From Vicinamibacterales bacterium (GTDB lineage: Bacteria; Acidobacteriota; Vicinamibacteria; Vicinamibacterales; CAVVIG01), in the NCBI GenBank assembly GCA_040081675.1, contig JBEBGB010000003.1, positions 1 through 48,340 of the forward strand: a stretch of 48,340 nucleotides of DNA, read 5' to 3'. The notes below the pieces were generated by a model. It had not been told where the DNA came from, ran no database searches, and saw only the letters and a program-made list of their open reading frames with translations. Below, one piece after another: positions 18,536-33,120 of the stretch. The position numbers and the translations under genes were made by a program. Within the stretch, counting starts at the first letter, position 1, and each line of letters starts with the position of its first letter.

Positions 18536-20707
18536 TCAATAGCGGAACAACCAGCTGACTTTGACGAACGCCTGCCTTCCAACAGAGCGGACGATGGGGT
18601 TCCAAGGCAACGGCACGTCGGCTCGCTCTGGCTCCAGCCGGTCGACGTAGCCGACATACAGGGCAGTGCCGGGATTCAGCTCGAGGGTGCCGAGGATATC
18701 GAGGCCCATCGGCTGCTTGCGCTTTACGGCGCTGAATACCGGATTCGGGTCCACGCGTTCGTAGTCGACGATGGCCCTGATGGACAGCGCGCGAGTGAAA
18801 TGCACGTTCAGCTTCGAGCGCAGGATGTCGTTGGTCAGCACCGTGCGAGAGCCGCCCACCTCACCCCGCTGGTAGAGATGCGTACGGAGGTAGGTTTCGG
18901 ACAACGCGACGTGACGCCCGGGCTTGAGCGACACCCCGACCTCGGCGGCCCGTCGGTCCACGAGGTGCGGCAGGCGACCTGCGGCAGGCTTGCGATTGAT
19001 GTCGGTCCCGATCTCGTACGCGGCCGCAATCGCCCACTGAGCCCGCTCGATCTCGACCTCCATCGTCGAGCGTGCTTTGTCGAAGTCGAGGCCGCCCACC
19101 GATTCGAAACTGCGGGCATGGTCGACGAGCACGGATGTCTGCCCCACGAACTCCATCTCGAACCGAGGTCGCGTTCGCCAATCGGTCAGCGCGTCTGCAT
19201 GATTCCAGATCAGATAGCCGTCGAACGTGGGACCGTACTTGACCAGCGGTCCGCCATCAGGCCGCCACTGGTAGGACACTTTGTGATCGACCTGTCTCAC
19301 GTCGACTCGTCGAATGAACCCCAGGGCCGCCTCGAAGTCTGGCGACAGGTCCGTGTACTGCGCGCTGATATCGAGGTGACGTGCGTCACGCTCGAGCGCC
19401 GCGAACATCGCCTTTCCGCTGGTGTGCGCTCCAGAGCGCGTCGTGTCGCTTCGCGCCAGCTGGCCGGCGACCGCCCACGTGTCGCCGATCGTCCAGCGTC
19501 CGTCCGCCGACACGACACGATTGGCATTGCCGGCTCCGGCAGCATCGCGCATCGTCGCCAGTGCTCCGATGTGCCCGGCTCGGCCGAACTCACGTCGAAC
19601 CGTTCCAACGAGGGCCGTCGCCGCGTCGGTGTCTGGCGTCTTTCGATCGTTCATCACCAGGCCCGCAGTCAACCACGACCCGGCCTTGCCGGTCAGCCTG
19701 GCGCCACCACCTGGATCGAGAATGCGTCGAGAGAAGAACGTTGGGACTGGGGTCGCGAAATAGCCGGCGTTCTCGACGAAGAAGGTGCGCTTCTCAGGGA
19801 ACAGCACCTCGAACCGCTCGTTGACGGTCACCTGCGGAGTATCGGATTCGACTTCGCTGAAGTCCGGATTGACCGTCGCGTCGAGCACGAAAGCGCTGCC
19901 CAGTCCGACCTTGGCGTCGATCCCCAGCCGGCGCGTCGAGTCGAAGGCGGCGTCAGCGTCCGCGCCGGTGCGAGCGTCTGCAAAGACGCCGTACGGCGTC
20001 ACCTGCAGGTTGGCACCTGGCGCGATGCGCTCGAAGCCGCGGGCGTCGGCGAACTGAGGAACGAATCCCTGCGCGCGCTTGGACACCAGCGGCCAGAACG
20101 ACTCCTCGTTGAGACGCTGGACCGTCCGCGAGAGTGCGATGCCCCAGGTCTGCGTCAGCTCGCCCGAGAATCGCAGGCTCCGAAACGGAATCGCCATCTT
20201 CACGGTGTAACCGAACGAGGTGAGCGTTGCCTCGCTGTACCACAACGTGTCGAAGCTGTCGTCGTCGTCCTGTCCCTCGGTCTTGATCGACTCGGACTGC
20301 ACGCCGAGCGGGTTGCTGGTGAACACGTACGCCCGGCGTCGATCGTGGAACGTGTCCAGGTACAGCGACACGCTGTCGTCGGCCTCTGCCCCCTCGCGGC
20401 GGCTCAAGCGAGCGCGAACTTTCTCTGGGTTGTCGATGCAGACGAAGACAGCGTAGAGGCGATCCTGGTCATACGACAGGTACGCGGTCGTGCCGAGCGT
20501 GGCGGGGCGGCCGTCGCGCGGCTCGCGCTGCCGGAACTCGGAGACCAGCCCGGGACGAGGGAGCGCCTCCGGCGAAGTGAAGGTGTCGAGCTCGGGTGCT
20601 GACGCCACGCGCGGAATCTGCACGCTGAGCGATTGCGCCGACGAGGGAGCCACGGAAGCCAGGGCCAGCAGCAGCGCGCCGCAGGCTCGCCACAATGCAG
20701 CGTTCAT
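18536..20707 (-). CDS. DUF5916 protein: CBM9-like domain plus probable outer-membrane beta-barrel
   Basis: Signal peptide, LDTFHD.R.AY.F..NP.GVQ, AIPFRSLRF, TVNPDFSEVESD, FPEKRTFFVE, C-terminal FVKVSWLFRY; ATG 20707 overlaps upstream stop. Confidence 0.85.
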   Translation of the reverse strand: MNAALWRACGALLLALASVAPSSAQSLSVQIPRVASAPELDTFTSPEALPRPGLVSEFRQREPRDGRPATLGTTAYLSYDQDRLYAVFVCIDNPEKVRARLSRREGAEADDSVSLYLDTFHDRRRAYVFTSNPLGVQSESIKTEGQDDDDSFDTLWYSEATLTSFGYTVKMAIPFRSLRFSGELTQTWGIALSRTVQRLNEESFWPLVSKRAQGFVPQFADARGFERIAPGANLQVTPYGVFADARTGADADAAFDSTRRLGIDAKVGLGSAFVLDATVNPDFSEVESDTPQVTVNERFEVLFPEKRTFFVENAGYFATPVPTFFSRRILDPGGGARLTGKAGSWLTAGLVMNDRKTPDTDAATALVGTVRREFGRAGHIGALATMRDAAGAGNANRVVSADGRWTIGDTWAVAGQLARSDTTRSGAHTSGKAMFAALERDARHLDISAQYTDLSPDFEAALGFIRRVDVRQVDHKVSYQWRPDGGPLVKYGPTFDGYLIWNHADALTDWRTRPRFEMEFVGQTSVLVDHARSFESVGGLDFDKARSTMEVEIERAQWAIAAAYEIGTDINRKPAAGRLPHLVDRRAAEVGVSLKPGRHVALSETYLRTHLYQRGEVGGSRTVLTNDILRSKLNVHFTRALSIRAIVDYERVDPNPVFSAVKRKQPMGLDILGTLELNPGTALYVGYVDRLEPERADVPLPWNPIVRSVGRQAFVKVSWLFRY

Positions 20708-21492
20708 GCGGACGCCTCCGCCGCTGTGGTCGCATCTGGCACGGGAGGCGACGTCGCGAGCGAGGCCGCCTCGACCAGCGACACGAACTGCACCATCGAA
20801 TGACGCCGGAGAGTGTCCAGCAGTGCCGAGACATCCTCGAGATCCAGATCGTCCATCACTGCGTGATGAAACAGGACGCCCGCAACCGGCCGGTTCGTCA
20901 AGACATCGGCACACGACGCGCCAAGCTGGTTCCGCGTGAGCCTGACGCCGCGCTTCTTGCCCGACCAGTCCACGTGCACCGGGCACTCACGAAGTCCGGC
21001 GACGCCGAGGACGCCTGCCGTGACATCTCTGGACAGCACCTCGACGCCCATCTCGACGAGCAGCGGACCCACCGCCTCGACACAGCGATTCCAAGGCGGC
21101 GTGAACACCGGGTCTACCGACGCACCGAACGCCTCGACCATGCGTGCGTGCCCTTGTGTGAGATCCATCCGCAGATCGTCGAGCGACCGCGACGCGCCGA
21201 ACTCGCACTTACGCCCAGTCGGCTCATGATTCATGTGCGCCCATCCGTGCTGATGAAACCCGAGGCGTGCGGGGTATGCGCGCCGGCGCTCCGTGAGCCA
21301 CTGCGCCCGCTCGCCAGTGAGTTCGGACGGGATCACGGCCAGAGCCAGGGGCACACCGTGCCAGGCGCACGTGTCCAACAGACCCGCCAGCCGCTCATCC
21401 GCCCAGCCCGCGTCGTCATCGCGCACGAACAGCGCGACCGGAACGTCTCGCGCGTCGAGCGCGCGGTGCACCGGGTCCAGCCAGCCGCTCAC
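20704..21492 (-). CDS. Polysaccharide deacetylase-like (CE4/NodB-like) protein
   Basis: FVRDDDAG, LAVIP, QHGWAH.NH, FTPPWNR, GVLFHH. Confidence 0.85.
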   Translation of the reverse strand: MSGWLDPVHRALDARDVPVALFVRDDDAGWADERLAGLLDTCAWHGVPLALAVIPSELTGERAQWLTERRRAYPARLGFHQHGWAHMNHEPTGRKCEFGASRSLDDLRMDLTQGHARMVEAFGASVDPVFTPPWNRCVEAVGPLLVEMGVEVLSRDVTAGVLGVAGLRECPVHVDWSGKKRGVRLTRNQLGASCADVLTNRPVAGVLFHHAVMDDLDLEDVSALLDTLRRHSMVQFVSLVEAASLATSPPVPDATTAAEASA

Positions 21493-22688
21493 CGGACCGC
21501 CTCCCCCGCGAACGCCCTTTGCGATCTGGCGGAGCGGCGAGACGCCAGGTCCGAGAGCAGGCGCAACGTCGTCTCGGCGCCGTTCATGTCGAGCGTCGGC
21601 CTGGCCGGCGTGAAGTCCAGCAGCTCACGAATCGCGCCCGCCAGGCGCTCGGGGGTGAGCTCTGTGGACGGGAGCGTCTCGAGCAGACCGCACTCGGCCA
21701 GGCGTGTGGCACGCGTGGTCTGCTCATTCTCACGCCCCTCGGCGAACGGCACGACGAGCGCCGGCACGCGAGCGCGCAGCAGGTCGAGCGCCGTGTTGTA
21801 GCCGCACTGACTCACCGAGGCGCGGGCAGACGTGAGCAGTGGTACCAGGCTCGGCACCTGCGGCAGAACCGTGAGCCCTCGACCCTTCGTCGCCGCTGTC
21901 TGCAGATCCGCGACGACGGCAGGCGGTGCGAACGGTCCGGCCACGATCGTCGTCGGCAGCTGCAGCACGGGCCAGTTGATGGCGTGCGCGGCAACGGCCG
22001 CGCGGAAGAGCGGCTCGCCCACATGTCCCCCGCCGGCGGACACCAGGACACCGGACCTGTCGACCGACGGTTGCTCAACGAAGTCGCGCGTCAGAAAGCC
22101 CGTGTACTCGACCGGCGTGGCGAGCGGAACGGAGGGGCGGAAGGTGTCCTCCAGCCGCGCGAAGATCGGATCGGTGTGCGCCATCACCAGATCGAAGAAA
22201 CGGTGGCAGAGGTCACGGGCGCGATCGTCGAACTCCTGCTGGCTCCGGCGCGCGGTCACCAGCAGGTCGCGAAGGCTGCACACAATGAGCGGACGGTCTG
22301 CCCCGCGGGCGTGAGCCGCCGTGAGCAGCGGGATCAGCTCGCACTCGAACTTCCGACGCCCGAACGGGAACAGCTCGATCAGCACCACGTCCGGCTGCCT
22401 GGCGTTCAGCAGCGCAATCATCTGATCGCGCCGTCGTTGCAGCGCCTCGTCCACCGTGAGACCGGGCGTGAGCGACACCAGCGTGGCGTCCTCTCGCATG
22501 CCGAGCGGGGGCAGGTCGATGCGCTCGACGGCGTCCGGAAACGGCAGCCCGGCCGGCACGGGGCCGCCGTTCAGAAAGACGATGTCGAAAGCGTGCGACA
22601 GCCGCTCGGCCATGGCCGATGAGCGGACGAAGTGACCCATGCCGATCGAGTGCTGGCAGTAGAAGAAGAGTTTCATCGTGGGCACCAT
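21489..22688 (-). CDS. GT-B glycosyltransferase, COG4671-like (GT28 C-terminal domain)
   Basis: YCQHSIGMGH, IELFPFGR, SLRDLL, SAGGG.VG, QCGYNT, ENEQ..RA. Confidence 0.88.
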   Translation of the reverse strand: MVPTMKLFFYCQHSIGMGHFVRSSAMAERLSHAFDIVFLNGGPVPAGLPFPDAVERIDLPPLGMREDATLVSLTPGLTVDEALQRRRDQMIALLNARQPDVVLIELFPFGRRKFECELIPLLTAAHARGADRPLIVCSLRDLLVTARRSQQEFDDRARDLCHRFFDLVMAHTDPIFARLEDTFRPSVPLATPVEYTGFLTRDFVEQPSVDRSGVLVSAGGGHVGEPLFRAAVAAHAINWPVLQLPTTIVAGPFAPPAVVADLQTAATKGRGLTVLPQVPSLVPLLTSARASVSQCGYNTALDLLRARVPALVVPFAEGRENEQTTRATRLAECGLLETLPSTELTPERLAGAIRELLDFTPARPTLDMNGAETTLRLLSDLASRRSARSQRAFAGEAVR

Positions 22689-22733: not shown

Positions 22734-24032
22734 TCAACCAACCAGATCACCAAGTCGCCAGGTCACCGGCTCGGGAGAACGCTGCGCAGCGTCATCAAGC
22801 GCAGCCACAGCGCTGCCCAGGTGCCGCTCGGCTCGAACATCGCCGTCCGGCCGCAGCGCGCGTGCGCTCCGGAGTGCCTTGGCCAGACGTTTGTGCGCGC
22901 GATACGCCGCGAGCAGCCGCGGATCGAGCGGACCCGCCGATTCCTCGTAACCCGCGATGAACGCAGGCGCGATGTCGTCCATCGAACAGGTCAGCCCATC
23001 TTCGAAGTCCAGTTCGCCGAGGAAGGTGGCCACATCGAGCTCGGGATCGCCCGTCGACAGCCGGTCGAAGTCCACCAGGCCAAAACCACGACCGATCCCG
23101 AGCCACTGGTTCATGTGCGGCGCGCCGTGAATCGGCACCTGCCTGGCGCCACAGTCCCGATGAACGGACTCCAGTGTGGCCATCAGCCCGGTAAGTGCGC
23201 CTGTCAGCGCCGGCACTCGCGCGCTCAGCTCACGCGCGTAGCTGTGCGAACGCTCGCACTGGACGTCGCTATCGAACCGCGCCCCTGGCGTGATGCGGGC
23301 TGACACAATCGTCCCGGCGGCGTGCCCCAGGCGTCTGGCGAAGTCCAGTGCATCCGCGCCCGCCAGCAACGGGCCTATTGAAACGCCCCCCACCGATCGC
23401 TGCCACAGCGTTCGGGTATCGGCGTCCCATGCGACCGGTTCGGCAACCGCGAACCCCAGCTCACCGCGCTCGGAGGCGGCCCACAGCTGCTGTGCTTCCT
23501 CGTGGAGACGACGACCGGTATCGTCGGGGAAGACCTTGCAGAAGAAGGTCGCGTCGATCCGGTCCACTCGGAACGTGCAGCGGCGTCCCGGGCGATACCG
23601 CACAACCACTCCGTCACCGGCGCGGGCCAGTGCGTCGGCGAGCGTCGGCAGACGACGGTCGCTCGGGAACCTCGACTCGGCCAACCATCCGAGCTCCGCG
23701 TGTTCGACAACCCGTGCGTACGACGTCCCGTCCGGCTCGACGTCGTAGAGCTCGACGGTGCGGATCTCCTGGCGCGGGTGCATGCGCTCGAACACGACGA
23801 TCGCGTAGGGCCGTCGCTCATGTGGGCGTGCCGCCGGAGCTGACGGCGCGCTCGGTCTGTGTGTCGGCGTCGCGTCCATCGCCGATGCGGGCAGGAAGCG
23901 GCCGTAGGTGCGCTGCCACTGCGGCGGATCCTGCGCGCGGCCCGCAGACCACTCGCCCATCGCGCCGAGGATCGCCGCATCATCGGCCAGCAACGCGAGA
24001 CGACGCCTGTAGGCAACATGAACGCTAGCCAC
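22734..24032 (-). CDS. APH/choline-kinase-like phosphotransferase, probable pseudokinase
   Basis: FP.D.RLP.L, RYRPGRRCT, FCKVF, IHGAPHMNQ (Asp missing), LVDFD, GDPELDVATF; GTG 24032 overlaps upstream stop. Confidence 0.8.
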   Translation of the reverse strand: MASVHVAYRRRLALLADDAAILGAMGEWSAGRAQDPPQWQRTYGRFLPASAMDATPTHRPSAPSAPAARPHERRPYAIVVFERMHPRQEIRTVELYDVEPDGTSYARVVEHAELGWLAESRFPSDRRLPTLADALARAGDGVVVRYRPGRRCTFRVDRIDATFFCKVFPDDTGRRLHEEAQQLWAASERGELGFAVAEPVAWDADTRTLWQRSVGGVSIGPLLAGADALDFARRLGHAAGTIVSARITPGARFDSDVQCERSHSYARELSARVPALTGALTGLMATLESVHRDCGARQVPIHGAPHMNQWLGIGRGFGLVDFDRLSTGDPELDVATFLGELDFEDGLTCSMDDIAPAFIAGYEESAGPLDPRLLAAYRAHKRLAKALRSARALRPDGDVRAERHLGSAVAALDDAAQRSPEPVTWRLGDLVG

Positions 24033-25428
24033 GAGAGACCTCCACGGCGTGGGCATGCGCGTCGGCCACGAGCGACTCGAGATGTGCGATCTGGTCGGGT
24101 CGCACGCGGGTGATCGAACGCTGCGCGCGTTCCACGAGCAGTGCCGCCGCCTGAAACCATCGCAGTTCGCGATTCGGTGGATTCGGCCTGACCGCCTCAT
24201 ATCCGTTCCTCAGCGCTGCCACTAGTTGCACCTCGCGCTGCGGCGTCCACTCGCCAGTCAGTGCACGGGTTCGCAACAGGGCCAGCACACTCGCGATATC
24301 GGCGGCAGCCGGCCCGTACGAGGCCACATCGAAGTCGATGAAACCCACATCGTCTCTGGTGGCCTGTCGTGTAGCGTTCGCGAAACCGGGTTGGTCGAGG
24401 GCGACGAGCCAGTTACGGGCGTTCACGTCGCCGTGTACGCAGACGGGCTGCTGGTCAGAGGGTCGATGCGCCACGAGCAGATCCACGGTGCGTCGCACGA
24501 GATCGCCGAGATCCGGTCTCGCCCATGCGACGACCTCGCCCGCTCGCACCAGTTGGTCGTCGTCGAACGCTCCGAATCTGGGGAGCGTGAACGGCGAGGC
24601 GTCGGTCGGAAGGGCATGCAAACGCGCCAGAGAGGTTCCAAGCGCAGTGAAGGCACGAACGAGCCTCGCTTCCGGCACGGCATCGAGATGCTGGCCTGCC
24701 ACGGCGTCGACAATGAGCAGGTGGCGACGGTCGTCCCAGGCTCTCAGTCGAGGGACGCGCAGCGGCGAGTCGGCAGCAGTCAGCGCATGTTCGAGCCACA
24801 GCAGCGCACGCCGAGCCTGTTCGAGATCGTTGGCTGCGTAGAGCTTTGCGAAGCCCACGGCCTGCCCATCTGGTTGCGAGACTCGGGCGATGGCGGCTCG
24901 TTCGGGGTTGTAGCCGACTACCTCGATCGACAGCCTTCCCGGATACAGGTCTCTGATGAGCGGGAGCGGCGTCGAGAGCGCGTCGAGACCGGCCAGACAT
25001 CGGTCGTTCGGGAACGTCCAGAACACCGCTTTCAACTCCGCATCGAAACACACGCCGCGCAAGGGCGAGCACGGCCGTTCGGTCCGGCGTGCGTCCGCGA
25101 ACATCGCCTCCGCACCTGTCGCTCGCATGCGCGTCGACACGAGGTAGCTGACACCGTCAACCCAGACACGATGAACTGTTCTGACGCTCTCGCCGATGCG
25201 GTACTTCGCACGGAGCCGCTCCACACGCTGGACCTCGAGCCTCCCACGTTCGCCCAATCGCTCGGCGAACACCTGGGCCGCCCACTGGTCGTCGAGCAGA
25301 CGATCGCGCAGCGGAAGCTGCAGATCCTTCGGCAGGAGGGCGCTCGCGGGCTGGTCGGCGGACTTGCCAGATTCGTGCGGACGTCTGACGTCGAGCCCGA
25401 CGCCGAGGATGACGCCTTCAATGCTCAT
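24025..25428 (-). CDS. APH/choline-kinase-like phosphotransferase
   Basis: WTFPND, YNPERAA, FAKLY, VHGDVNARN, FIDFD, GPAAADIA; ATG 25428 in ATGA overlap. Confidence 0.85.
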   Translation of the reverse strand: MSIEGVILGVGLDVRRPHESGKSADQPASALLPKDLQLPLRDRLLDDQWAAQVFAERLGERGRLEVQRVERLRAKYRIGESVRTVHRVWVDGVSYLVSTRMRATGAEAMFADARRTERPCSPLRGVCFDAELKAVFWTFPNDRCLAGLDALSTPLPLIRDLYPGRLSIEVVGYNPERAAIARVSQPDGQAVGFAKLYAANDLEQARRALLWLEHALTAADSPLRVPRLRAWDDRRHLLIVDAVAGQHLDAVPEARLVRAFTALGTSLARLHALPTDASPFTLPRFGAFDDDQLVRAGEVVAWARPDLGDLVRRTVDLLVAHRPSDQQPVCVHGDVNARNWLVALDQPGFANATRQATRDDVGFIDFDVASYGPAAADIASVLALLRTRALTGEWTPQREVQLVAALRNGYEAVRPNPPNRELRWFQAAALLVERAQRSITRVRPDQIAHLESLVADAHAHAVEVSRG

Positions 25429-27440
25429 GACGAACTCCTCGCTGTGGTGAGGGCTCCGTCCTCGACCGACCAGGTTGCCCACGCACACCGGCTGTCGTTG
25501 CCCATTCGAGTACTGCGGCCGCCGGTCGTGAGCACCCCCTCGACGACGTCGAGTGCGGAGAACGCAACGAGACGACCGCCGGCGTCGACTCGCGTCCACG
25601 CCGCGAGGGCCGTGCCGGAGAAACCGGGCAGGTCGATGCCGTGGCACGCACCGGCCCACGACAGCGTGTCGATAAAAGCCTCGGACGGGCGAACGCGGTC
25701 CCCTCGACTCGCATCGCCTGTCTGGGGCGTGCGCACCTCGACGACCATGGGATCCTCGAAGCGCGCGCTGCCAGCCAACTGCCGAATGCGAAGTGCAGTG
25801 TCGAAGAGATCGCGTGGCGCGACCGCGGTCAACAGAACCGTCGATGTGGCCCGTGCCGACATCGCCACGACCGGCGCGCGGTGTTTCACGCCGTAGAGCG
25901 GAGCGAACCAGCCGTCCTCGATCCGCAGCGGGAACGCCGGTGTGAACGTGAGCGCGACACCGTCGGCGACGATCACGCCAGGGCGGTCCTGACAGACCGC
26001 AATGTGCTGGCCTGCCTCTGGAGCGAGGTGCCAGCGAAGCTCGTATGTGTGCTCGCGAGCGCCCTCGAGATAGTCCGCGACGAGCCAGTACTCGTTGCCG
26101 ACGAAGAGCACGGCGCGCGAGTGCACGGCCTCGTAGGCCGGGCTCGTGCACTGCCCTGCCACAAGGTCGAAGCGGGGTGCGCTGCCTCGAGCGAGCAGCT
26201 GTCCAGAGGCCACGAGTCCCCCCGGTTTGCGCCTTGCGTACGGCGTCTGGTCGAGTCCGTCGACCAGAACCGTGTTGTGCGCCGCTGTACTCTTGAACCA
26301 GCGTCGCCAGTTCGGCGGTGTTTCCGAGTAGGTGTATCGACCGGGGTCGATCAGCAGCGGCTTGCCGCCTGACGCGGCTTCCACGCTCAGCTGGTCGTAA
26401 TGGCCATGGCCGCCGTCACCGAGCGGTCCGCAGTCGAAGATCAGAAACCGCTCGTCCGCATAGGGACGATCGACGCCCCACCCGCTTCGCTGCGTGTAGT
26501 AGCCGCCTGCCGGGAAACTCGCACACTGACGTGACGGCGCCTGGCCGGCAGCACCTGACGTGGCGGCGTAGACCAGATCCGCGCGGTTCAGCAGTTGTCC
26601 CGCCAGCAGCAGCACGTCGGCGTAGCTCTCGCTGTCGGCGTCCGAGCATGCCGGAATCCGACCGTCCGGCCGGTGGCAATGCAGCGCGAAGTCGGCCGCC
26701 AGCGCGACGCGCTCGGTGAACGAGGCTGGAAGGGCGATGCCCGCCATCCGCGCGTTCTGCATGGCGCCGAGAAACGAGCGCAGGACGATGCAGTGATAGT
26801 GGGTCGAGCCCTCGCGGTGCACCCCGTCGGGCCGCACATCGGCAAGCAGATTCAGATGGAGCTGCTCGAACGCGAAGTCCCGCAGCGCGGCTCCTTCATC
26901 GAGATCGGGGAACGCCAGCGCCGCAACGAGCAGCGCGTACAGTTCCAGCGTTCGATGGTTGCGTTCCTTCGTCAGGTTGTCTCGAACCGAGAGCACCTCA
27001 TCCCACAGATACCCGACGACGCGGTGCGCTTCCTGCTCGGTGAGCGGGTCGCACCCGCCCTCATGCTCGAAGCGGTTCCAGGCGTAGATCCAGTTCTGGA
27101 TGCGGCGTGCCGCCACCTCGGTGTCATCCGCTCCAGCCGGCACCTGCGCCACGAAGCTGGTCACCAGCCGGCGCCAGGCGTCGCGGTACCGCACATCCTT
27201 CGTGTCGGCAAAGGCATGCGCCAGATCGAGACCGTAGTAGAACTTGACCCACTCGACCCGCCACTCCTTATCGTCGGGGAACGGATCGACCCGCCAGTCG
27301 GGCTCGGTGCCGAGCGGCAACGTGAGCCCGCCGATCGTGAAGTAGCCCGTCACCACGTCGTTCGCAACGGCGAGATCGCGGCACGCGCTGTCCAGCACGC
27401 TGAAGACCACGCGGGGCACACAGGCATGTGTCGAACTCAC
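25425..27440 (-). CDS. Heparinase II/III-like polysaccharide lyase family protein
   Basis: NH..LEL, DGVHREGSTHYH, RPDG.IP..SDAD, GHGHYDQLS, DPGRYTY, STAAHNTVLVDG; no evident signal peptide. Confidence 0.87.
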   Translation of the reverse strand: MSSTHACVPRVVFSVLDSACRDLAVANDVVTGYFTIGGLTLPLGTEPDWRVDPFPDDKEWRVEWVKFYYGLDLAHAFADTKDVRYRDAWRRLVTSFVAQVPAGADDTEVAARRIQNWIYAWNRFEHEGGCDPLTEQEAHRVVGYLWDEVLSVRDNLTKERNHRTLELYALLVAALAFPDLDEGAALRDFAFEQLHLNLLADVRPDGVHREGSTHYHCIVLRSFLGAMQNARMAGIALPASFTERVALAADFALHCHRPDGRIPACSDADSESYADVLLLAGQLLNRADLVYAATSGAAGQAPSRQCASFPAGGYYTQRSGWGVDRPYADERFLIFDCGPLGDGGHGHYDQLSVEAASGGKPLLIDPGRYTYSETPPNWRRWFKSTAAHNTVLVDGLDQTPYARRKPGGLVASGQLLARGSAPRFDLVAGQCTSPAYEAVHSRAVLFVGNEYWLVADYLEGAREHTYELRWHLAPEAGQHIAVCQDRPGVIVADGVALTFTPAFPLRIEDGWFAPLYGVKHRAPVVAMSARATSTVLLTAVAPRDLFDTALRIRQLAGSARFEDPMVVEVRTPQTGDASRGDRVRPSEAFIDTLSWAGACHGIDLPGFSGTALAAWTRVDAGGRLVAFSALDVVEGVLTTGGRSTRMGNDSRCAWATWSVEDGALTTARSSS

Positions 27441-29203
27441 CGGACGATCTCCAGCATGGGACGCGGACGAGCCTCCGCCCGCACCGTCCCGCCGGCGATG
27501 CGGTACACGACGTCAGCCCGCGACACCAGCGTCGACTCGTGCGTGATGGCGAGACAGGTCCTGCCCGCCCGCAGGCGTTCGAGCGCATCGAGGATGACCC
27601 GCGCCGACTCGGCATCGACGTTCGCGAGCGGTTCATCCAGCAGCAGAATCGGGCGGTCGAGCAGGAACGCGCGCGCCAGCGACAGCCGTTGACGCTGACC
27701 GCCGGACAGGTTGACGCCGTCCTCGCCGAGCGTCGTGTCGAGCCCAACCGGCAACGACGCCACGAACTCGTCGAGCGCCACGAAGCTGAGTGCGGTTCTG
27801 ATGCGGCGCTCGTCCACCGAGCCCGCGTCGGTCGTCAGCGCCTGCCGCAGTGTCCCCGAGAACAGATGCAGGTCCTGGGTCATCACGGCGAACTGCGATC
27901 GCAACGAGCGAATCGTGTACGCGTCAAGCGGCCGTCCGTCGAGGCGCACAGTACCCGTGGTCGGATCGAACAGCCGGAGGCAGAGGCTGATGAGCGTGCT
28001 CTTCCCAGCGCCGCTCATCCCCACGAGGACAGTAAGCGCGCCAGGCTCGATTCGCATGTTCACGCCGCGCAGTACGGGCGGCCGCTCCGCGCCGTCGGCC
28101 GGGTAGCTGAACCACGCGTCCTGCAGTTCGATGAGCCCCGCAGCCCGATCCAGATTCATCGCACCCGGAGCGTCCTCGACGAGAGGACGCTCGCCGAGAA
28201 AACGCATCAGTCGTTCCCCTGACACGAGCCCCTTCGACGCGGCCTCGGTGATCTCGTTCACCTTGTCGATCGGGCGGACCAGTTGCGCGACGTAGGCAGT
28301 CACCACCGTCAACTCGCCCACGGTCATCCAGCCGCGAATCACAAGCAGCGCCCCGCCGATCGTGGCGGCGGCCGTGACGATGGCGCGGGCTACACCGAAG
28401 CCGCGCTCGAGACCGGCAGCGGCCCGCGACGCCTGCACGCCCGCGCGCAACCCTTCAGCGCTCACTGTGGCGAAACGCTGCCGCGCGCCCTCTGTTGCGC
28501 CGAGCGCCTGGATGACGGGCAACCCGCGAACGATCTCCTGCGCGACGGCCGCCACCTCGCCCTCACGACGACGCTTCGTTCGGGACGCTGCGGCCACGCG
28601 ACGGCCGTGGAACCGCACCAGTGTCCACAGCAGCGGGATGAACACGAGGCACGAGAGCCCCATCCAGGGCGAGAGCCAGGCGATTCCCGCCGCGGTGAAG
28701 AGCAGAGTCCCGCTGAACTTCACGAGCAGCGGGACGGTCTTGGTCCAGAACCGCGTGAACTGATCGACGTCCCCGACGATGCGCATCACGAGCTCGCCGC
28801 TGCGATGGGTGGTGCGGATTGTGGGCGGCAGTGTCTGAAGATGCGCGAGCATGCGGTCGCGGATCGCGAAGGCGAGCCGCTCGCGGATGCGGGCAGCGAT
28901 AACGGCGTCGGCGGCCTCGGCGACGGCGCTTCCGAGGGCGATCACGAGGAACACGCCGCCCAGGACGAGTACGCCTTCCTGCAATCCCAGCGCTCTCATC
29001 CACGAGGGCCAGCTGCCCGCTGTCGGTCCGGCTATAAGTCGGTCGATGATCCACTTCAGTGGCCACGGAGCCAGCGCGTTGCCGGCGACCGCGGTCAAGG
29101 TGATCAGGTTCGCCTTGATGAATGCCCCGCGCAGGGCGAAGACATCGGGCCCGAACGTGCGAGCCAGCTGGCGGAGACGGCCGGGCGCGGGCGCGGAGGT
29201 CAT
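27437..29203 (-). CDS. ABC exporter, fused TMD-NBD (MsbA-like half transporter)
   Basis: Multiple TM helices, PWPLK, GMSGAGKST, LSGGQRQR, LLLDEP, ITH. Confidence 0.93.
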   Translation of the reverse strand: MTSAPAPGRLRQLARTFGPDVFALRGAFIKANLITLTAVAGNALAPWPLKWIIDRLIAGPTAGSWPSWMRALGLQEGVLVLGGVFLVIALGSAVAEAADAVIAARIRERLAFAIRDRMLAHLQTLPPTIRTTHRSGELVMRIVGDVDQFTRFWTKTVPLLVKFSGTLLFTAAGIAWLSPWMGLSCLVFIPLLWTLVRFHGRRVAAASRTKRRREGEVAAVAQEIVRGLPVIQALGATEGARQRFATVSAEGLRAGVQASRAAAGLERGFGVARAIVTAAATIGGALLVIRGWMTVGELTVVTAYVAQLVRPIDKVNEITEAASKGLVSGERLMRFLGERPLVEDAPGAMNLDRAAGLIELQDAWFSYPADGAERPPVLRGVNMRIEPGALTVLVGMSGAGKSTLISLCLRLFDPTTGTVRLDGRPLDAYTIRSLRSQFAVMTQDLHLFSGTLRQALTTDAGSVDERRIRTALSFVALDEFVASLPVGLDTTLGEDGVNLSGGQRQRLSLARAFLLDRPILLLDEPLANVDAESARVILDALERLRAGRTCLAITHESTLVSRADVVYRIAGGTVRAEARPRPMLEIVR

Positions 29204-30585
29204 CGAGCGGTCTCCAGGAAGAGCGCGGCCAGCCGATCGGCGAGCCGATCGCCGTCGAACTGTTCGCGCGCGGTGCGTCGGGCAGCATCAGCCATGTGCG
29301 CCATCAGCGTGCGTTCGTGGTAGGCGCGGGCGAGCGCGTGTGCGAGCGCCGGCGCGTTCTCGGCCGCCACAAGGAGACCGTTCGACTCGTGGCGCACGAC
29401 TTCCGGGATCCCTGACACGTCGGTGGTCACGACGGGCGTCCCGCACGCCATGGCTTCCATCAGCACGTTCGGAATGCCGTCGCGATCGCCGTCCGCGAGC
29501 ACTCGGCAGGGGAGGCAGAACACGTGCGCCCGGTGGTACTCGTCGAACAGGCGCGCCTGGTTCTGCGGGCCGACAATCGTGACGTGACCGCCGAGGTCGC
29601 GCGCGGCGATGAGGTCGCGGATGTCGTTCGCGTGGTCGCCGTCGTTGCCGATGATCACCACCTCGAAGGGAATGGCCTGGGCACGCAGCATGGCCGCCGC
29701 TTCAATGAGGATGTCGAACCCTTTCTTGCGGACCAGGCGGCCGACGCTCAGGATCCGGAACCGCTCGTGCGGCTTGTCCGAAGGAACCCGGCTGGCGAGC
29801 AGCTGGCTGAACTCGGCGTTCAATCCGTGATACAGGCAGTGCACCGTGGCCGTCGGCGCCACGTCGCGCAACATGCGCTGGTTCGTCCCCGTGCAGGTGA
29901 CGGCGAAGCGAGCCGCTTCGAGCTTGCGGCGCAGCACACCCTCCGCGTTCGACGAGTCGGCGTAGATGTCCTTGGCATGGCCCGTAAACGAGAACGACAG
30001 GCCTGTGATGGTCGATGCGAACCAGGCCACCGTCGTGGCGCCGTGCGCGTAGTGCGCGTGCAGATGACGGACGGTCGGTGTGGTTCGGAGTCGGTCGACG
30101 AGTTCCACGGCGTGCAGCAGCTCGCGGATGAAGGAGAGCCTGGCTCGACCCGTGGAACGCCACGGTCGATAGAGCTCCAGCGTCATGATCGTCAGCGCGC
30201 GGGCCAGGCCAATCGGATGGCGCAGGGCCACGCGAACGAGCGCACCGGAGAAGAGCGGCAGGTGCGAGCGCAGCCACGACCCCAGCGGTGTCGACGAGAT
30301 CGATGCGGTGGGCGCAAGGAACTCCGGCGTGGCTCGAATGAGATCCACGACCTTGTGGCGAGGCAAGAGGTCGCTCACCTCGGCTGGCTTGGTGGAGAAC
30401 AGCCGCAGCGGGATGCCGAGCGTTTCGAGCCGGTAGATCTCGCTGAGGATGAACGGCTCCGACGCCCGCGGGTACGCCTTGAGCACATAGGCCAGCCAAG
30501 GCCCTTCCGACGTCGGTCTCGGGCGAGCCGAGTGAGTCGACGTTCCCGCCTTTCCCGGCCCTGCTGGCTTTCCCGCGTCAGTCAT
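29200..30585 (-). CDS. GT4 glycosyltransferase (WcaL-like)
   Basis: YPRASEPFI, HLHAHYAH, FTGHAKDIY, VGRLVRKKG, GDRDGIPNVLMEAMA; ATG 30585. Confidence 0.92.
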   Translation of the reverse strand: MTDAGKPAGPGKAGTSTHSARPRPTSEGPWLAYVLKAYPRASEPFILSEIYRLETLGIPLRLFSTKPAEVSDLLPRHKVVDLIRATPEFLAPTASISSTPLGSWLRSHLPLFSGALVRVALRHPIGLARALTIMTLELYRPWRSTGRARLSFIRELLHAVELVDRLRTTPTVRHLHAHYAHGATTVAWFASTITGLSFSFTGHAKDIYADSSNAEGVLRRKLEAARFAVTCTGTNQRMLRDVAPTATVHCLYHGLNAEFSQLLASRVPSDKPHERFRILSVGRLVRKKGFDILIEAAAMLRAQAIPFEVVIIGNDGDHANDIRDLIAARDLGGHVTIVGPQNQARLFDEYHRAHVFCLPCRVLADGDRDGIPNVLMEAMACGTPVVTTDVSGIPEVVRHESNGLLVAAENAPALAHALARAYHERTLMAHMADAARRTAREQFDGDRLADRLAALFLETAR

Positions 30586-31675
30586 ACGCCGCCGCCAGTG
30601 TCTCGGTGAACCGGCGCGCGCAGACCGTGACGTCGTAGCGACGCTCGACGAGCTGGCGACCGCCTCGCGCGATCGCTCGCGCAAGGTCCGCACGCCCAGC
30701 AACGGTTTCGATGGCAGATGCCAGTGCTCGCGCATCGCCCGCGCGTACGAGCAGGCCTGTTTCGCCGTCGACGATCGCCGACTCGATGGCCCCGGCGCGG
30801 GTAGCCACCACCGGTCGTTCCGACGCCAGCGCTTCGAGGAGGACGTTGGGCAGCCCGTCTCTGTCGCCGGCTTCGTCGACAACCGATGGAACCGCCACGA
30901 GATGTGCGGCGGCGTAGAGCGCCGGCAGGTCGGCGTGGCTGGCACTGCCATGCCACGTGACGCGAGGGCCGATACCGAGCGAGTCCGCCATCGAGCGAAG
31001 CGAGGCGCCGTCGGGGCCGTCGCCCACGATGCACAGCGTCCACGGCACGCGGACCCTGGCAATCGCGTCGAGCAGGACGTTGAATCCCTTCTTGGGAACC
31101 AGTCGACCGACGGCGAGCACGCGCAGCTCACCGTCCGCAGGCAGAGGCGACGGTGCAAAACGCGTCAGGTTGACGCCGTGAGGAATCAGCGCTGGGGTGA
31201 CACCGAGTCTGGCGATCTCCACCTGCGCGTCCGCGTTGCAGACCACCACACACCGCGCGCCAGCCGCTCGACGACCGAGCTCTGGCCGCGGCACCGTTCG
31301 GGCATCCTTGGCATGCGCCGAGAAGCCGTAGGGCACGCCCAATCGTTCAGCGGCGCACGCGGCAACCGCCGCCGGGTGATGCGCGAAGTAGCCGTGAACC
31401 GCGCGCGGTCGGCGGGAGCCCAACTCTTCGACAATCTCACTCGCCTGGTCTTCAATTCTGCCGCTCTTCAGCACGCGAACGCGCGGCGACAGCCGGGCGG
31501 CATCTGGATGTGGCGCAAGGCCGTCGCCGGGCTTGGTGGCGAACGCTGCCATGAGCAGCCCTGCCTGCTCCAAGGCCGCCAGCTCGGGCAGCGCAAACGT
31601 TTCCGAGCGCCGGGGAAATCCGCTGAGGACCACGACAACTCCTGACTCGCGTGGGCTCCGCTGGTCAGTGGACAT
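30578..31675 (-). CDS. GT4 glycosyltransferase (WcaL-like)
   Basis: FPRRSETF, VHGYFAH, SAHAKD, VGRLVPKKG, GDRDGLPNVLLEALA. Confidence 0.92.
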   Translation of the reverse strand: MSTDQRSPRESGVVVVLSGFPRRSETFALPELAALEQAGLLMAAFATKPGDGLAPHPDAARLSPRVRVLKSGRIEDQASEIVEELGSRRPRAVHGYFAHHPAAVAACAAERLGVPYGFSAHAKDARTVPRPELGRRAAGARCVVVCNADAQVEIARLGVTPALIPHGVNLTRFAPSPLPADGELRVLAVGRLVPKKGFNVLLDAIARVRVPWTLCIVGDGPDGASLRSMADSLGIGPRVTWHGSASHADLPALYAAAHLVAVPSVVDEAGDRDGLPNVLLEALASERPVVATRAGAIESAIVDGETGLLVRAGDARALASAIETVAGRADLARAIARGGRQLVERRYDVTVCARRFTETLAAAYD

Positions 31676-32885
31676 GGACGCCGGCTCCCGTTGCGCGCGT
31701 CTTCGCCGCGATCGGACGCATCGTTGGTTGTTGATCCGGGCTCAGCAGGTTCGACACGAGCCGAGGCACCTGTTCGAGCGCGGTGAAGCGCAGCGTCGCG
31801 GGCCGCAGCGACGTCTTGACGGTCGCCATCCAGCGTGTGAGCGCCTGAGAAGAAAGGTCGCGCTGCGCGAGAACGTCGACGAGTCCGATTTCAGCGAAGC
31901 GGGTTGCTCGAATGGTCTGTTCACGCCGGGGAGCTTCGCGCGGCACGAGCAGCGCAGGTTTCCGATAGGCGAGGATCTCGCAGACACTGTTGTAGCCCGC
32001 CATACCGACCACGCGTGTCGCGCGCTCGACGAGCGAGGCGCCGTCGTCGGTGAAGTCGATCAGATGGAAGTCGTCTCGTGTCGCGGCAACGGCGCGCACG
32101 TGCTTCAATGCCGGCTCCGGGCAGAACGGCCCGGTCAGCAGCACGCCCGTCTCCCCGCCTGGAAAGGACGACTCCGAGAACGCGAGGGCCAGTTCCGTAC
32201 CGTCCTGACCTCCGCCCGCCAGGCACAGGGTGAAGGGACGCGCGAGCGCAGCACCCGTCGAAGCAGCGGCCTCGCTGTCGTGGGGCGACCGCCGATCGAG
32301 GTAGCCCACGAATCGCACGCGATGCCGGGTCGACTCGGGGAAGTGGCACTCTTCCGACAGGTCGTAGACCGACGGGTCGCCGTAGATCCAGACCTGGTCG
32401 TAGTACCGCTCGATGCTCGCGTGGTGGCCGGCGGCGGCCCACTCGCGCGCCACGACCGACGGCTCGTCGAGGATGTCGCGGAGGCCGAGCACGGTCTTGA
32501 TCCGTCGTCCCATGCGCAGAGCGGCCAGTGTGGGCTCCAGTTCGCCGAGTGCGCCGAGGGGGACGTTGTCGACAATCAGCAGGTGGGGGTCGAATCGCTC
32601 GAGCGCCGCGCGGATGGTCTGGGAGCGAAGGCCGACGATGTGATCCAACGGGCACGACAGGTGGCGGGCGCTGTACGCGCCAGTCATCTGGTGCTTGCCG
32701 AGTGCGGGCAGCGTGATGCAGTCGATGCCCGCAGGCATGTGGAATGCACCGCCCAAGTGCGTCCCCGAGATGAGCAGAATCGACACGTCGACGTGACGGT
32801 CGACGATCGCACGGGCCAGCGCGAGATTGCGCCGTACGTGGCCCAACCCCATCGTGTCATGCGAGTAGAAGGCGATTCTGTGCAC
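31665..32885 (-). CDS. GT-B glycosyltransferase, COG4671-like; first gene of glycan operon
   Basis: YSHDTMGLGHVRR, LGLRDILD, AGGGQDG, MAGYNSVCE, EQ.IRA; GTG 32885 preceded by AGGAGG (32890-32895). Confidence 0.9.
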   Translation of the reverse strand: MHRIAFYSHDTMGLGHVRRNLALARAIVDRHVDVSILLISGTHLGGAFHMPAGIDCITLPALGKHQMTGAYSARHLSCPLDHIVGLRSQTIRAALERFDPHLLIVDNVPLGALGELEPTLAALRMGRRIKTVLGLRDILDEPSVVAREWAAAGHHASIERYYDQVWIYGDPSVYDLSEECHFPESTRHRVRFVGYLDRRSPHDSEAAASTGAALARPFTLCLAGGGQDGTELALAFSESSFPGGETGVLLTGPFCPEPALKHVRAVAATRDDFHLIDFTDDGASLVERATRVVGMAGYNSVCEILAYRKPALLVPREAPRREQTIRATRFAEIGLVDVLAQRDLSSQALTRWMATVKTSLRPATLRFTALEQVPRLVSNLLSPDQQPTMRPIAAKTRATGAGVHVH

Positions 32886-33114: not shown

Positions 33115-33120
33115 AAACAT

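What the first reader, a model, noticed from the sequence alone, without database searches (positions are those of the whole stretch)
18536..32885. Ten-gene glycan operon with paired enzymes and no Wzx/Wzy or priming transferase
Order: COG4671 GT, GT4, GT4, ABC exporter, heparinase II/III-like, APH kinase, APH pseudokinase, COG4671 GT, deacetylase, DUF5916 barrel. Nearly all junctions overlap by 4-11 nt. There are three paralog pairs, and I see no polymerase, chain-length regulator, Wza or undecaprenyl-phosphate sugar transferase. Inference: a short, phosphorylated, de-N-acetylated, uronate-containing oligosaccharide or glycolipid is made in the cytoplasm and exported via the ABC transporter, possibly with the DUF5916 barrel. 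The product is unknown to me.
Basis: partly seen in the sequence, partly recalled or inferred. Interest (0 to 1): 0.7.

Follow-up and report, generated by a model that had tools for sequence, protein, structure and literature searches.

The report
Unstudied cross-phylum glycan assembly and export operon
This is a real, tightly packed operon that builds, chemically trims and exports an unknown acidic amino-sugar glycan by an unusual route, and near-identical gene sets recur in uncultured soil and water bacteria of at least five phyla with no studied example found.

Summary
The ten genes are present at the stated coordinates on the minus strand. Eight of nine junctions overlap by 4-11 nt.

The operon runs three genes further, to 15415. 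These encode a UDP-uronate 4-epimerase-like SDR, a histidine phosphatase and a TviB-like UDP-GlcNAc 6-dehydrogenase.

The 'deacetylase' has no Pfam hit but folds as a CE4 enzyme with intact metal and catalytic motifs. One APH protein is an intact kinase; the other lacks the catalytic Asp. The heparinase III-like protein keeps its active-site residues but has no signal peptide.

An eight-gene core is colinear in 16 of 23 long related loci: two MurG-like GT-B, two GT4, an MsbA-type ABC exporter, the PL12-like protein, the kinase and CE4. These loci come from Acidobacteriota, Actinomycetota, Chloroflexia, Eisenbacteria and Nitrospirota. The core is nevertheless rare, in 8 of 401 Acidobacteriota genomes.

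Natural fusions link GT to deacetylase (8 loci) and lyase-like protein to kinase.

Acidobacteriota and Nitrospirota loci carry one of four unrelated outer-membrane barrels. The eight Actinomycetota, Chloroflexia-type and Eisenbacteria loci carry none.

No Wzx, Wzy, priming transferase, PCP or OPX was found nearby.

Verdict: an uncharacterised cytoplasmic-assembly, ABC-plus-porin glycan pathway. The product is unknown.

The parts
31665..32885 (-). G1: MurG-like GT-B glycosyltransferase (COG4671-type, N-terminal GLGHxxR motif), 406 aa
   Evidence: Glyco_tran_28_C, E 6e-8. Weak MurG, PseG and MJ1255 matches. Found in 27 of 38 related loci.
30578..31675 (-). G2: GT4 glycosyltransferase, 365 aa
   Evidence: Glycos_transf_1, E 5e-32. 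Found in 30 of 38 loci.
29200..30585 (-). G3: GT4 glycosyltransferase, 461 aa (ATG at 30585)
   Evidence: Glycos_transf_1, E 4e-40. EpsE-like at 173 bits, below its 400-bit cut-off. Found in 33 of 38 loci.
27437..29203 (-). G4: fused TMD-NBD ABC exporter (MsbA/PglK type), 588 aa
   Evidence: ABC_membrane + ABC_tran. MsbA at 312 bits, below cut-off. TM-like segments present. Found in 26 of 38 loci.
25425..27440 (-). G5: cytoplasmic heparinase III (PL12)-like protein, 671 aa
   Evidence: Hepar_II_III_N and _C. Matches solved heparinase III at E 7e-19, with the NH, YH and H columns identical. These residues are invariant in 32 of 32 orthologs. No signal peptide.
24025..25428 (-). G6: APH-family kinase with intact catalytic loop, 467 aa
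   Evidence: APH, E 9e-19. HGDxxxxN is invariant in 29 of 29 sequences. The nearest solved proteins are small-molecule kinases.
22734..24032 (-). G7: APH-family pseudokinase, 432 aa
   Evidence: APH, E 2e-7. The catalytic Asp is Ala or Ser in 9 of 10 sequences, and the catalytic-loop Asn is replaced.
21489..22688 (-). G8: second MurG-like GT-B glycosyltransferase, 399 aa
   Evidence: Glyco_tran_28_C, E 5e-9. Fused in frame to G9 in 8 loci. 3072 relatives at E<=1e-10.
20704..21492 (-). G9: cytoplasmic CE4-fold (DUF2334-type) deacetylase, 262 aa
   Evidence: No Pfam hit. AF2 pLDDT 91. Foldseek gives CE4 enzymes. D26 D27, H82 H86 and H209 H210 are invariant. Relatives carry PF10096/PF01522.
18536..20707 (-). 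G10: secreted CBM9-like domain plus large outer-membrane beta-barrel (DUF5916), 723 aa
   Evidence: DUF5916 at 54 bits. Signal peptide and C-terminal ...FRY. AF2 pLDDT 90.6 with about 25 strands. Foldseek hits TonB receptors, AlgE and CBM9.
17350..18447 (-). G11: SDR nucleotide-sugar epimerase, UDP-uronate 4-epimerase-like, 365 aa
   Evidence: Epimerase family. Best solved match is 5u4q at E 2e-141. Next is the entry set 6zl6/6zla, deposited as 'Epimerase domain-containing protein', at E 8e-52.
16692..17417 (-). G12: histidine phosphatase (start 17417, or GTG 17357)
   Evidence: His_Phos_1, E 1e-37. Also present in L001, L026 and the Manganitrophus locus L040.
15415..16695 (-). G13: TviB/WbpO-like UDP-N-acetylhexosamine 6-dehydrogenase, 426 aa
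   Evidence: NF011729 TviB, E 4e-145 at 484 bits, below its 592-bit cut-off. Solved relatives include Cap5O.
33088..33115 (-). Three (T/C)TGAC(A/C) direct repeats at an 11-nt period, upstream of G1
   Evidence: The pattern TTGACN6YTGACA has 3 hits in the window against 0.05 expected. All three lie here or upstream of the sigma gene. The array is conserved in L001.
38861..38899 (-). Four (T/C)TGACA direct repeats at an 11-nt period, upstream of the ECF sigma gene
38185..38829 (-). ECF-type sigma factor, heading a sigma / CHAT-TPR / hypothetical / S8 peptidase unit just upstream
   Evidence: Sigma70_r2 and r4. A sigma homolog is adjacent to the cluster in 7 of 38 loci.
33235..38185 (-). CHAT-TPR protein (38185-35231), a hypothetical protein, and a secreted S8 peptidase (34611-33235)
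   Evidence: CHAT, E 2e-59, and Peptidase_S8, E 1e-33. Homologs lie next to the cluster in Blastocatellia and Pyrinomonadaceae loci.

Best explanation
This is a 13-gene operon (32885-15415, minus strand) for an uncharacterised glycan.

Sugar supply (inferred from family). G13 and G11 make UDP-HexNAc-uronate, in gluco and/or galacto form.

Assembly (inferred). Four soluble GT-B transferases, G1, G2, G3 and G8, build the glycan on the cytoplasmic face.

Modification before export.
- G8 adds an N-acetyl-hexosamine that G9 de-N-acetylates at once. The gene fusion is shown; the chemistry is inferred.
- The G6 kinase, probably scaffolded by the pseudokinase G7, phosphorylates the intermediate.
- The cytoplasmic PL12-like G5 abstracts the C5 proton of a uronate, leading to beta-elimination or C5-epimerisation. 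Intact active-site residues and a natural fusion to the kinase are shown; the reaction is inferred.
- The histidine phosphatase G12 may remove the phosphate again.

Export (inferred). The MsbA-type half-transporter G4 moves the product across the inner membrane. In this lineage, the CBM9-plus-barrel protein G10 passes it through, or holds it at, the outer membrane.

Regulation (inferred). The unit is probably switched on together with the adjacent ECF sigma operon.

Whether the product is a short oligosaccharide, a lipid-anchored glycan or a polymer is not resolved.
For: Operon structure:
- Translationally coupled, co-directional genes.

Conservation:
- The eight-gene core sits on one strand in 16 of 23 loci of 17 kb or more, and in 17 of 38 loci overall, from five phyla.

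Cytoplasmic enzymes:
- No signal peptide or TM segment in any enzyme.

Natural fusions:
- G8-G9 fused in 8 loci, from both short-read and long-read assemblies.
- G5-G6 fused in L017 and in the database protein P0478, 1042 aa, held by several sources.

Active sites:
- G5 active-site columns invariant in 32 of 32 orthologs and identical to solved heparinase III.
- G6 catalytic loop invariant in 29 of 29; G7 degenerate in 9 of 10.
- G9 has the CE4 fold with D-D and H-x3-H motifs.

Uronate supply genes recur:
- G11 in 6 loci and G13 in 3 loci.

Outer-membrane barrel pattern:
- DUF5916 in the window, L001 and L026.
- A CarboxypepD_reg/OMP_b-brl_4 barrel in 14 loci.
- A signal-peptide protein with an aromatic C-terminus in 3 Pyrinomonadaceae loci.
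- An Alginate_exp barrel in Manganitrophus.
- None in the 8 Actinomycetota, Chloroflexia-type and Eisenbacteria loci.

Regulation:
- The same repeat array lies upstream of both G1 and the sigma gene.
Against: - No product, substrate or activity has been measured; every enzymatic step is inferred from family or fold.
- No acceptor-forming or priming enzyme is in the cluster, so the first step is unknown.
- The TonB-receptor-like barrels usually import rather than export.
- One Acidobacteriota locus, L035, shows neither G9 nor a barrel.
- The G4-G5 fusion is clean in only one long-read assembly (L027) and is doubtful in L026.
- The G6/G7 similarity is weak.
- The ABC gene sits at three different positions in the cluster and is only about 30% identical in many loci, so the exporters may not be orthologous.
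- Patchy occurrence, in 8 of 401 Acidobacteriota genomes, fits a specialised metabolite as well as a surface glycan.
Confidence: 0.55

Rival explanations
1. This is an ordinary ABC-transporter-dependent surface polysaccharide (O-antigen, capsule or teichuronic-acid-like). It is primed on undecaprenyl phosphate by a WecA- or PHPT-type enzyme encoded elsewhere. The kinase acts as a chain terminator and the lyase-like protein as a chain-length trimmer.
For: - The genome has 7 Bac_transf and 3 Glycos_transf_4 genes outside the window.
- G2 and G3 resemble polymer-forming GT4 enzymes such as WcaL, TuaC and TviE, but at scores below their cut-offs.
- TviB-like and epimerase genes are present.
- A terminal phosphate made by the kinase WbdD controls export in E. 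coli O9a (recalled, not tested here).
Against: - The exporter is a fused ABC_membrane type, not Wzm/Wzt or KpsMT.
- No PCP, OPX, Wzz or LCP ligase appears in the window or in 82 flanking ORFs.
- A cytoplasmic deacetylase fused to a GT is typical of early steps on small acceptors (recalled).
- The cluster is present in only 2% of sampled genomes of the phylum.
Confidence: 0.2
2. This is a biosynthetic gene cluster for a secreted, specialised amino-sugar oligosaccharide metabolite, antibiotic-like or metal-binding. The APH-type kinase and the phosphatase handle a transient protecting phosphate, the ABC protein exports the compound, and the barrel serves export or re-uptake.
For: - Patchy but cross-phylum distribution.
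- The nearest solved relatives of G6 are self-resistance or small-molecule kinases: corramycin, aminoglycoside and amicoumacin kinases, at E 6e-9 to 3e-7.
- Kinase and phosphatase lie in one operon.
- GT followed by deacetylase is the logic of aminoglycoside, mycothiol and bacillithiol pathways (recalled).
- TonB-receptor-like barrels sit inside 14 loci.
Against: - There is no aminocyclitol, aminotransferase or other scaffold-forming gene in the conserved core.
- A PL12-like enzyme and an alginate-export-type porin point to an anionic uronate glycan.
- Similarity to APH enzymes is generic for the family.
Confidence: 0.17
3. This is a degradative or salvage locus for environmental uronate glycans. 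The heparinase-like enzyme cleaves the glycan, and the barrel and ABC protein import the fragments.
For: - PL12 family membership of G5.
- TonB-receptor-like barrels in many loci.
- Glycoside hydrolases flank some loci.
Against: - Four glycosyltransferases and nucleotide-sugar synthesis genes lie in one operon.
- G5 has no signal peptide.
- G4 is an exporter-type fused TMD-NBD protein with no binding protein.
- The flanking hydrolases are not conserved.
Confidence: 0.04

Closest known systems
ABC-transporter-dependent O-antigen/capsule pathways (E. coli O9a WbdD-Wzm/Wzt; group 2 capsules; Vi antigen)
   Same: - The glycan is completed in the cytoplasm by soluble GTs and then exported by an ABC transporter.
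- A kinase is present in the cluster, as WbdD is in O9a (recalled).
- UDP-HexNAc-uronate supply genes resemble TviB/TviC.
   Different: - The exporter is MsbA/PglK-type, not ABC-2.
- There is no PCP/OPX pair. A stand-alone barrel takes its place.
- No methyltransferase, Kdo linker or VexE-type genes are present.
- A cytoplasmic lyase-like enzyme and a deacetylase are added.
Synthase-dependent exopolysaccharide systems (alginate AlgE, PNAG PgaA/PgaB)
   Same: - A single outer-membrane beta-barrel with no OPX protein. The Manganitrophus version carries a true Alginate_exp barrel.
- A lyase-family protein and a deacetylase are encoded within a biosynthetic operon.
   Different: - There is no membrane-embedded GT2 synthase and no c-di-GMP receptor.
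- The lyase-like protein and the deacetylase are cytoplasmic here. They are periplasmic in those systems (recalled).
GT-plus-deacetylase early steps on small or lipid acceptors (MshA/MshB, BshA/BshB, PIG-A/PIG-L, ArnC/ArnD, C. difficile HexS/HexD)
   Same: - A cytoplasmic deacetylase acts directly after a GT, supported here by the G8-G9 fusion in 8 loci.
- ArnD is among the structural matches of G9.
   Different: - G9 is CE4/DUF2334, not LmbE/PIG-L.
- The partner GT is MurG-like.
- Three further GTs, a kinase pair and a PL12-like enzyme follow.
- The acceptor is unknown.
Heparinase III (PL12) of Pedobacter and Bacteroides
   Same: - Both Pfam domains are present.
- Sequence match at E 7e-19.
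- The NH, YH and H columns are identical.
   Different: - G5 has no signal peptide.
- It is encoded inside a biosynthetic operon.
- It is naturally fused to a kinase in two sequences.
- Its substrate cannot be host heparan sulfate.

Membership tests
ABC-transporter-dependent polysaccharide pathway (Wzm/Wzt or KpsMT type) | ABC-2 type permease with a separate ATPase | tested here: not met
   G4 is a fused ABC_membrane (PF00664) + ABC_tran protein. No ABC2_membrane protein is in the window.
ABC-transporter-dependent polysaccharide pathway (Wzm/Wzt or KpsMT type) | PCP and OPX (Wza/KpsD-type) envelope proteins | tested here: not met
   No Poly_export or Wzz hit among 41 window ORFs or 82 flanking ORFs of related loci.
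Wzx/Wzy-dependent pathway | Wzx flippase, Wzy polymerase and a priming phosphoglycosyl transferase in the locus | tested here: not met
   None in the window or in the flanks of related loci. PHPT and WecA-type genes exist elsewhere in the genome.
Synthase-dependent pathway | Membrane-embedded processive GT2 synthase | tested here: not met
   All four GTs are soluble GT-B proteins with no TM segment.
Polysaccharide lyase family 12 (heparinase III) | Hepar_II_III N and C domains with conserved Asn/Tyr/His active-site residues | tested here: met
   Pfam E 8e-26 and 3e-42. The alignment to 4mmh and 5jmd keeps NH, YH and H. These residues are invariant in 32 of 32 orthologs. Which residues are catalytic is recalled from the literature, not tested.
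Polysaccharide lyase family 12 (heparinase III) | Beta-eliminative cleavage of a uronate-containing glycan | not testable with these tools
   This needs an enzyme assay. The cytoplasmic location makes a non-degradative role likely.
Carbohydrate esterase family 4 / DUF2334 | NodB-type fold with Asp-Asp and His-x3-His metal/catalytic motifs | tested here: met
   AF2 pLDDT 91. Foldseek probability 1.00 to CE4 structures. D26 D27, H82 H86 and H209 H210 are invariant in 20 of 20 sequences. Relatives carry PF10096/PF01522. The window protein itself gives no Pfam hit.
APH / eukaryotic-like kinase family | HxDxxxxN catalytic loop and a Mg-binding Asp | tested here: met
   G6: HGDxxxxN in 29 of 29 sequences. 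G7 fails this test, with Ala or Ser in place of Asp in 9 of 10, so it is filed as a pseudokinase.
DUF5916 outer-membrane proteins | Pfam PF19313 match, signal peptide and beta-barrel | tested here: met
   54 bits against a 22.6-bit cut-off. Signal peptide and aromatic C-terminus. The model shows about 25 strands plus a CBM9-like domain.
Vi-antigen pathway (TviBCDE, VexABCDE) | TviB and TviC equivalogs plus TviD/TviE and Vex export genes | tested here: not met
   G13 scores 484 bits, below the 592-bit cut-off. G11 scores 113 bits, below 760. TviE-like similarity is only E 1e-10. No Vex-type genes are present.
GT28 (MurG) | Equivalog-level match to MurG over both domains | tested here: not met
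   Only the C-terminal nucleotide-sugar domain matches, at 21-24 bits against cut-offs of 250-339. CAZy/dbCAN assignment could not be run.

The most novel reading that the evidence does not exclude
The cluster defines a fourth route of bacterial glycan export: an MsbA-type ABC exporter plus an interchangeable stand-alone porin, with no PCP/OPX and no synthase.

Its fused kinase and PL12-like pair would perform phosphorylation followed by elimination on a terminal uronate. This would install a 4,5-unsaturated cap that ends chain growth and marks the glycan for export. The logic would be the sugar counterpart of lanthipeptide kinase/lyase chemistry and of the WbdD/Wzt terminator.
Probability: 0.1. 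Interest if true: 0.85.

Novelty: new variant of a known kind. Interest (0 to 1): 0.6.

Why it matters
- Relatives of the marker proteins number in the thousands in public metagenomes: 3072 for G8, 3445 for G9 and 2045 for G5 at the thresholds used.
- Among the best 120 hits, every source name for G5 and G9 was a MAG or metagenome. The only cultured carrier seen is Methylomonas, and only for the G8 homolog.
- The pathway therefore represents a common but unstudied piece of envelope or secreted-glycan chemistry in soil and water bacteria.
- It offers testable new enzymology:
  - a cytoplasmic PL12-like enzyme coupled to a kinase;
  - a GT-deacetylase fusion;
  - a kinase/pseudokinase pair acting on a glycan.
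- It also offers a simple ABC-plus-porin export design.

Tried and rejected
- Complex prediction of the G4 nucleotide-binding domain (residues 335-588) with G5 gave no verdict (score 0.00). It says nothing either way.
- The look-up of sequencing runs listed no RNA holder, so expression could not be examined.
- Rfam at gathering threshold found no known RNA family in the window or upstream of G1 in five related loci.
- The sigma-70 and terminator consensus scan of 14800-33400 gave 0 promoter-like sites. It gave 7 terminator-like sites against 8.5 expected, which is not informative.
- Literature, from search listings and abstract starts only:
  - 'COG4671': 0 papers.
  - 'DUF5916': 0 papers.
  - 'DUF2334': 2 papers, unrelated by title and abstract.
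  - The five-term heparinase/GT/ABC/EPS search: 1 paper, on Lacticaseibacillus.
  - The heparinase / polysaccharide biosynthesis / C5-epimerase search: 59 papers, 20 listed, none on such a cluster.
- The Atlas search for G6 returned only unnamed APH clusters.
- The plasmid search with G9 found 215 records. Most were a two-gene GT4 + deacetylase module on rhizobial megaplasmids, which is not the full cluster.
- ORF family 'F3' turned out to be antisense ORFs over DegT-type genes, and 'F4' an unrelated ABC-F protein. Both were dropped.
- The apparent G4-G5 fusion in L026 was rejected because about 300 residues between the two matches fit neither protein.
- The search of earlier findings was not open.

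Full report
**Observation**

The window is about 65% G+C. Between 32885 and 18536 the minus strand carries ten ORFs whose starts I placed at Shine-Dalgarno-preceded codons next to the upstream stop.

Pfam and NCBIfam give, in order:
- G1: a MurG-like GT-B protein (Glyco_tran_28_C only).
- G2 and G3: two GT4 enzymes.
- G4: a fused ABC_membrane/ABC_tran exporter.
- G5: a heparinase II/III N+C protein.
- G6 and G7: two APH-family proteins.
- G8: a second MurG-like GT-B.
- G9: a 262-aa protein with no hit.
- G10: a DUF5916 protein with a weak CBM9 match.

Eight of the nine junctions overlap by 4-11 nt, and G7->G8 is a 45-nt gap. G1/G8 (E 7e-21) and G2/G3 (E 1e-34) are clear paralog pairs. G6/G7 share only the kinase core (E 0.004).

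Two additions are needed. First, the 'deacetylase' call rests on fold, not on any family model. Second, the operon continues beyond 18536:
- After an 88-nt gap comes G11, an SDR epimerase. Its best solved relative is 5u4q (E 2e-141). Next is the 6zl6/6zla set (E 8e-52), which I recall as the Bacillus cereus UDP-glucuronate 4-epimerase.
- Then G12, a histidine phosphatase.
- Then G13, a TviB-like UDP-GlcNAc 6-dehydrogenase at 484 bits, below the 592-bit cut-off.
- A convergent TPR gene (13720-15411, +) closes the unit.

**The individual proteins**

Localisation. None of G1-G3, G5-G9 or G11-G13 has a signal peptide or a hydrophobic segment. G4 has TM-like segments. G10 has a signal peptide and ends in ...WLFRY.

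G9. It was modelled from 20 orthologs at pLDDT 91. Its Foldseek matches are CE4 deacetylases, including ArnD and the deacetylase domain of human NDST1. The Asp-Asp, His-x3-His and His-His positions are invariant. Database relatives carry DUF2334 and sometimes Polysacc_deac_1.

G5. It matches solved heparinase III at E 7e-19, with identical NH, YH and His columns. These positions are invariant in 32 of 32 orthologs. The enzyme therefore looks catalytically competent yet cytoplasmic.

G6 and G7. G6 keeps HGDxxxxN in 29 of 29 sequences. G7 has Ala or Ser for the Asp in 9 of 10 and lacks the Asn. A profile of G6 finds only small-molecule kinases among solved structures, the best being corramycin phosphotransferase at E 6e-9.

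G10. It was modelled from 40 family members at pLDDT 90.6. The model shows an N-terminal beta-sandwich that matches CBM9 structures (TM 0.60-0.66 by target) and a barrel of roughly 25 strands. The barrel resembles TonB-dependent receptors, AlgE and MtrB only in general shape.

**Conservation**

The scan. A scan of one genome per species with G5 returned 38 loci, all from MAGs. They came from Vicinamibacterales, Blastocatellia, Pyrinomonadaceae, Terriglobia, Gaiellaceae, Acidimicrobiia, Chloroflexia and Eisenbacteria, among others.

The core. tblastn with the window's proteins finds G1, G2, G3, G4, G5, G6, G8 and G9 all on one strand in 17 of 38 loci. Among the 23 loci of at least 17 kb, 16 have the full core. 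The seven exceptions are:
- L028, a lone G5 paralog.
- L009, L016, L027, L034, L035 and L036, each missing one or two genes at my thresholds. Several of these show evident frameshifts.

A fifth phylum. A plasmid-labelled contig of Candidatus Manganitrophus (Nitrospirota) carries the same set plus a radical-SAM/SPASM gene and a histidine phosphatase.

Rarity within the phylum. A G9 profile matched only 8 of 401 Acidobacteriota genomes, in 7 of 228 genera, and none of the two other genomes of the window's own family. Such patchy, cross-phylum occurrence suggests horizontal spread. I did not test that with a tree.

**Gene fusions**

- G8 and G9 form one reading frame in 8 loci (L006, L009, L017, L022, L024, L029, L032, L036), which include short-read assemblies.
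- G5 and G6 are fused in L017 and in the 1042-aa database protein P0478, which is held by several sources.
- G7-G8 and G4-G5 fusions are each seen cleanly once, both in the long-read assembly L027. They could be indel artefacts at 4-nt overlaps. The L026 'fusion' is not credible.

The two well-supported fusions argue for two functional pairs: the GT with the deacetylase, and the lyase-like enzyme with the kinase.

**Outer-membrane component**

DUF5916 accompanies the cluster only in the window, L001 and L026. Other lineages carry different proteins:
- Fourteen loci carry a roughly 900-aa CarboxypepD_reg + OMP_b-brl_4 barrel. It usually lies between the ABC gene and G8.
- Three Pyrinomonadaceae loci carry a 320-435-aa protein directly after G9. 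It has a signal peptide and an aromatic C-terminus, and I did not verify it further.
- Manganitrophus carries an Alginate_exp barrel after the ABC gene.
- The eight Actinomycetota, Chloroflexia-type and Eisenbacteria loci show none.
- One Acidobacteriota locus, L035, also shows none.

Replacement by unrelated barrels in the Acidobacteriota and Nitrospirota loci, and their absence from the Actinomycetota and Chloroflexia-type loci, is the best evidence that the product crosses or sits on the outer membrane. That the former lineages have two membranes and the latter one is my recollection, not a tool result.

**What is missing**

No Wzx, Wzy, PHPT, WecA-type, Wzz or Wza family was found among 41 window ORFs or 82 flanking ORFs of related loci. 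The flanks did hold:
- extra APH genes in five loci;
- Gfo/Idh/MocA plus DegT pairs in Terriglobia loci;
- one ABC-2 permease 2 kb from the cluster in L017.

The genome has 7 Bac_transf and 3 Glycos_transf_4 genes on other contigs, so priming in trans remains possible.

**Mechanism**

Shown:
- operon structure;
- cytoplasmic enzymes;
- intact or degenerate active sites;
- fusions;
- the barrel pattern;
- recurrent uronate-supply genes.

Inferred:
- G13 and G11 supply UDP-HexNAc-uronates.
- The four GT-B enzymes build the glycan.
- G9 de-N-acetylates the sugar added by G8.
- G6, with G7, phosphorylates the intermediate.
- G5 carries out C5 proton-abstraction chemistry, either elimination or epimerisation.
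- G12 may remove the phosphate.
- G4 and G10 export the product.

A cytoplasmic deacetylase fused to its GT recalls early steps on small or lipid acceptors, as in the MshA/MshB, PIG-A/PIG-L and ArnC/ArnD pathways (recalled). I put 0.55 on this general scheme. The rivals are a conventional Und-P-primed surface polymer (0.20), a secreted specialised metabolite (0.17) and a catabolic locus (0.04).

**Regulation**

Upstream on the same strand lie an ECF sigma gene, a CHAT-TPR gene, a small ORF and a secreted S8 peptidase. Sigma homologs adjoin the cluster in 7 of 38 loci. In Blastocatellia and Pyrinomonadaceae they come with a Cys-rich putative anti-sigma protein, CHAT and S8.

In the window, (T/C)TGACA repeats at an exact 11-nt period precede both G1 (three copies, one ending in C) and the sigma gene (four copies). 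The two-repeat pattern has 3 hits in the window against 0.05 expected, all three at these two sites. L001 keeps both arrays. Co-regulation is a reasonable inference.

**Comparison and novelty**

The system works like an ABC-transporter-dependent glycan pathway but fails that family's defining tests: it has no ABC-2 transporter and no PCP/OPX. It also lacks the Wzx/Wzy set and a GT2 synthase. It shares the lone porin with synthase-dependent systems.

My searches found nothing in print on COG4671 or DUF5916, and no paper describing such a cluster (listings only).

I rate it a new variant of a known kind of system, with several unusual enzymatic couplings.

Noticed in passing
window 33088-33115 and 38861-38899 (minus strand): Arrays of three and four (T/C)TGACA repeats at an exact 11-nt period lie upstream of G1 and of the ECF sigma gene. 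In both cases, and in L001, an ACGCAC-like hexamer follows about 17 nt after the last repeat. This may be a shared promoter or operator.
   Followed up: partly
L002:5603-5952, L003:5909-6258, L004:5962-6311, L005:1-226: Blastocatellia loci share a promoter-like CATGTATTTAAT-N17-CACTGTT element and a conserved leader of about 200 nt before G1. The leader has a GCCGCAAAGGC hairpin and a covarying GGCCGCC...GGCGG stem next to the ribosome-binding site. No Rfam family matched. This may be a new cis-regulatory RNA.
   Followed up: partly
L039:10886-12732 and L041:10838-12702: A two-gene GT4 + G9-like deacetylase module with a 4-nt overlap is widespread on Rhizobium and Sinorhizobium megaplasmids, which account for 188 of the 215 plasmid records that matched. 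It lies near a nucleotide-sugar dehydrogenase and a DUF3095/adenylate cyclase pair.
   Followed up: partly
L004:5533-5577 and 5672-5716: Two inverted copies of the Acido-Lenti-1 sRNA motif lie between the S8 peptidase gene and G1.
   Followed up: no
L040:8582-9552: The Manganitrophus version of the cluster holds a radical-SAM/SPASM gene between the kinase and the histidine phosphatase. The gene is split by frameshifts in that assembly.
   Followed up: no
window 10592-11755 (+): A NamZ-type exo-beta-N-acetylmuramidase gene, unrelated to the operon.
   Followed up: no
window 34608-35510 (-): The longest ORF between CHAT and S8 overlaps the CHAT gene by 280 nt. The real gene is probably shorter, at about 200 aa. 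It has no family hit.
   Followed up: no
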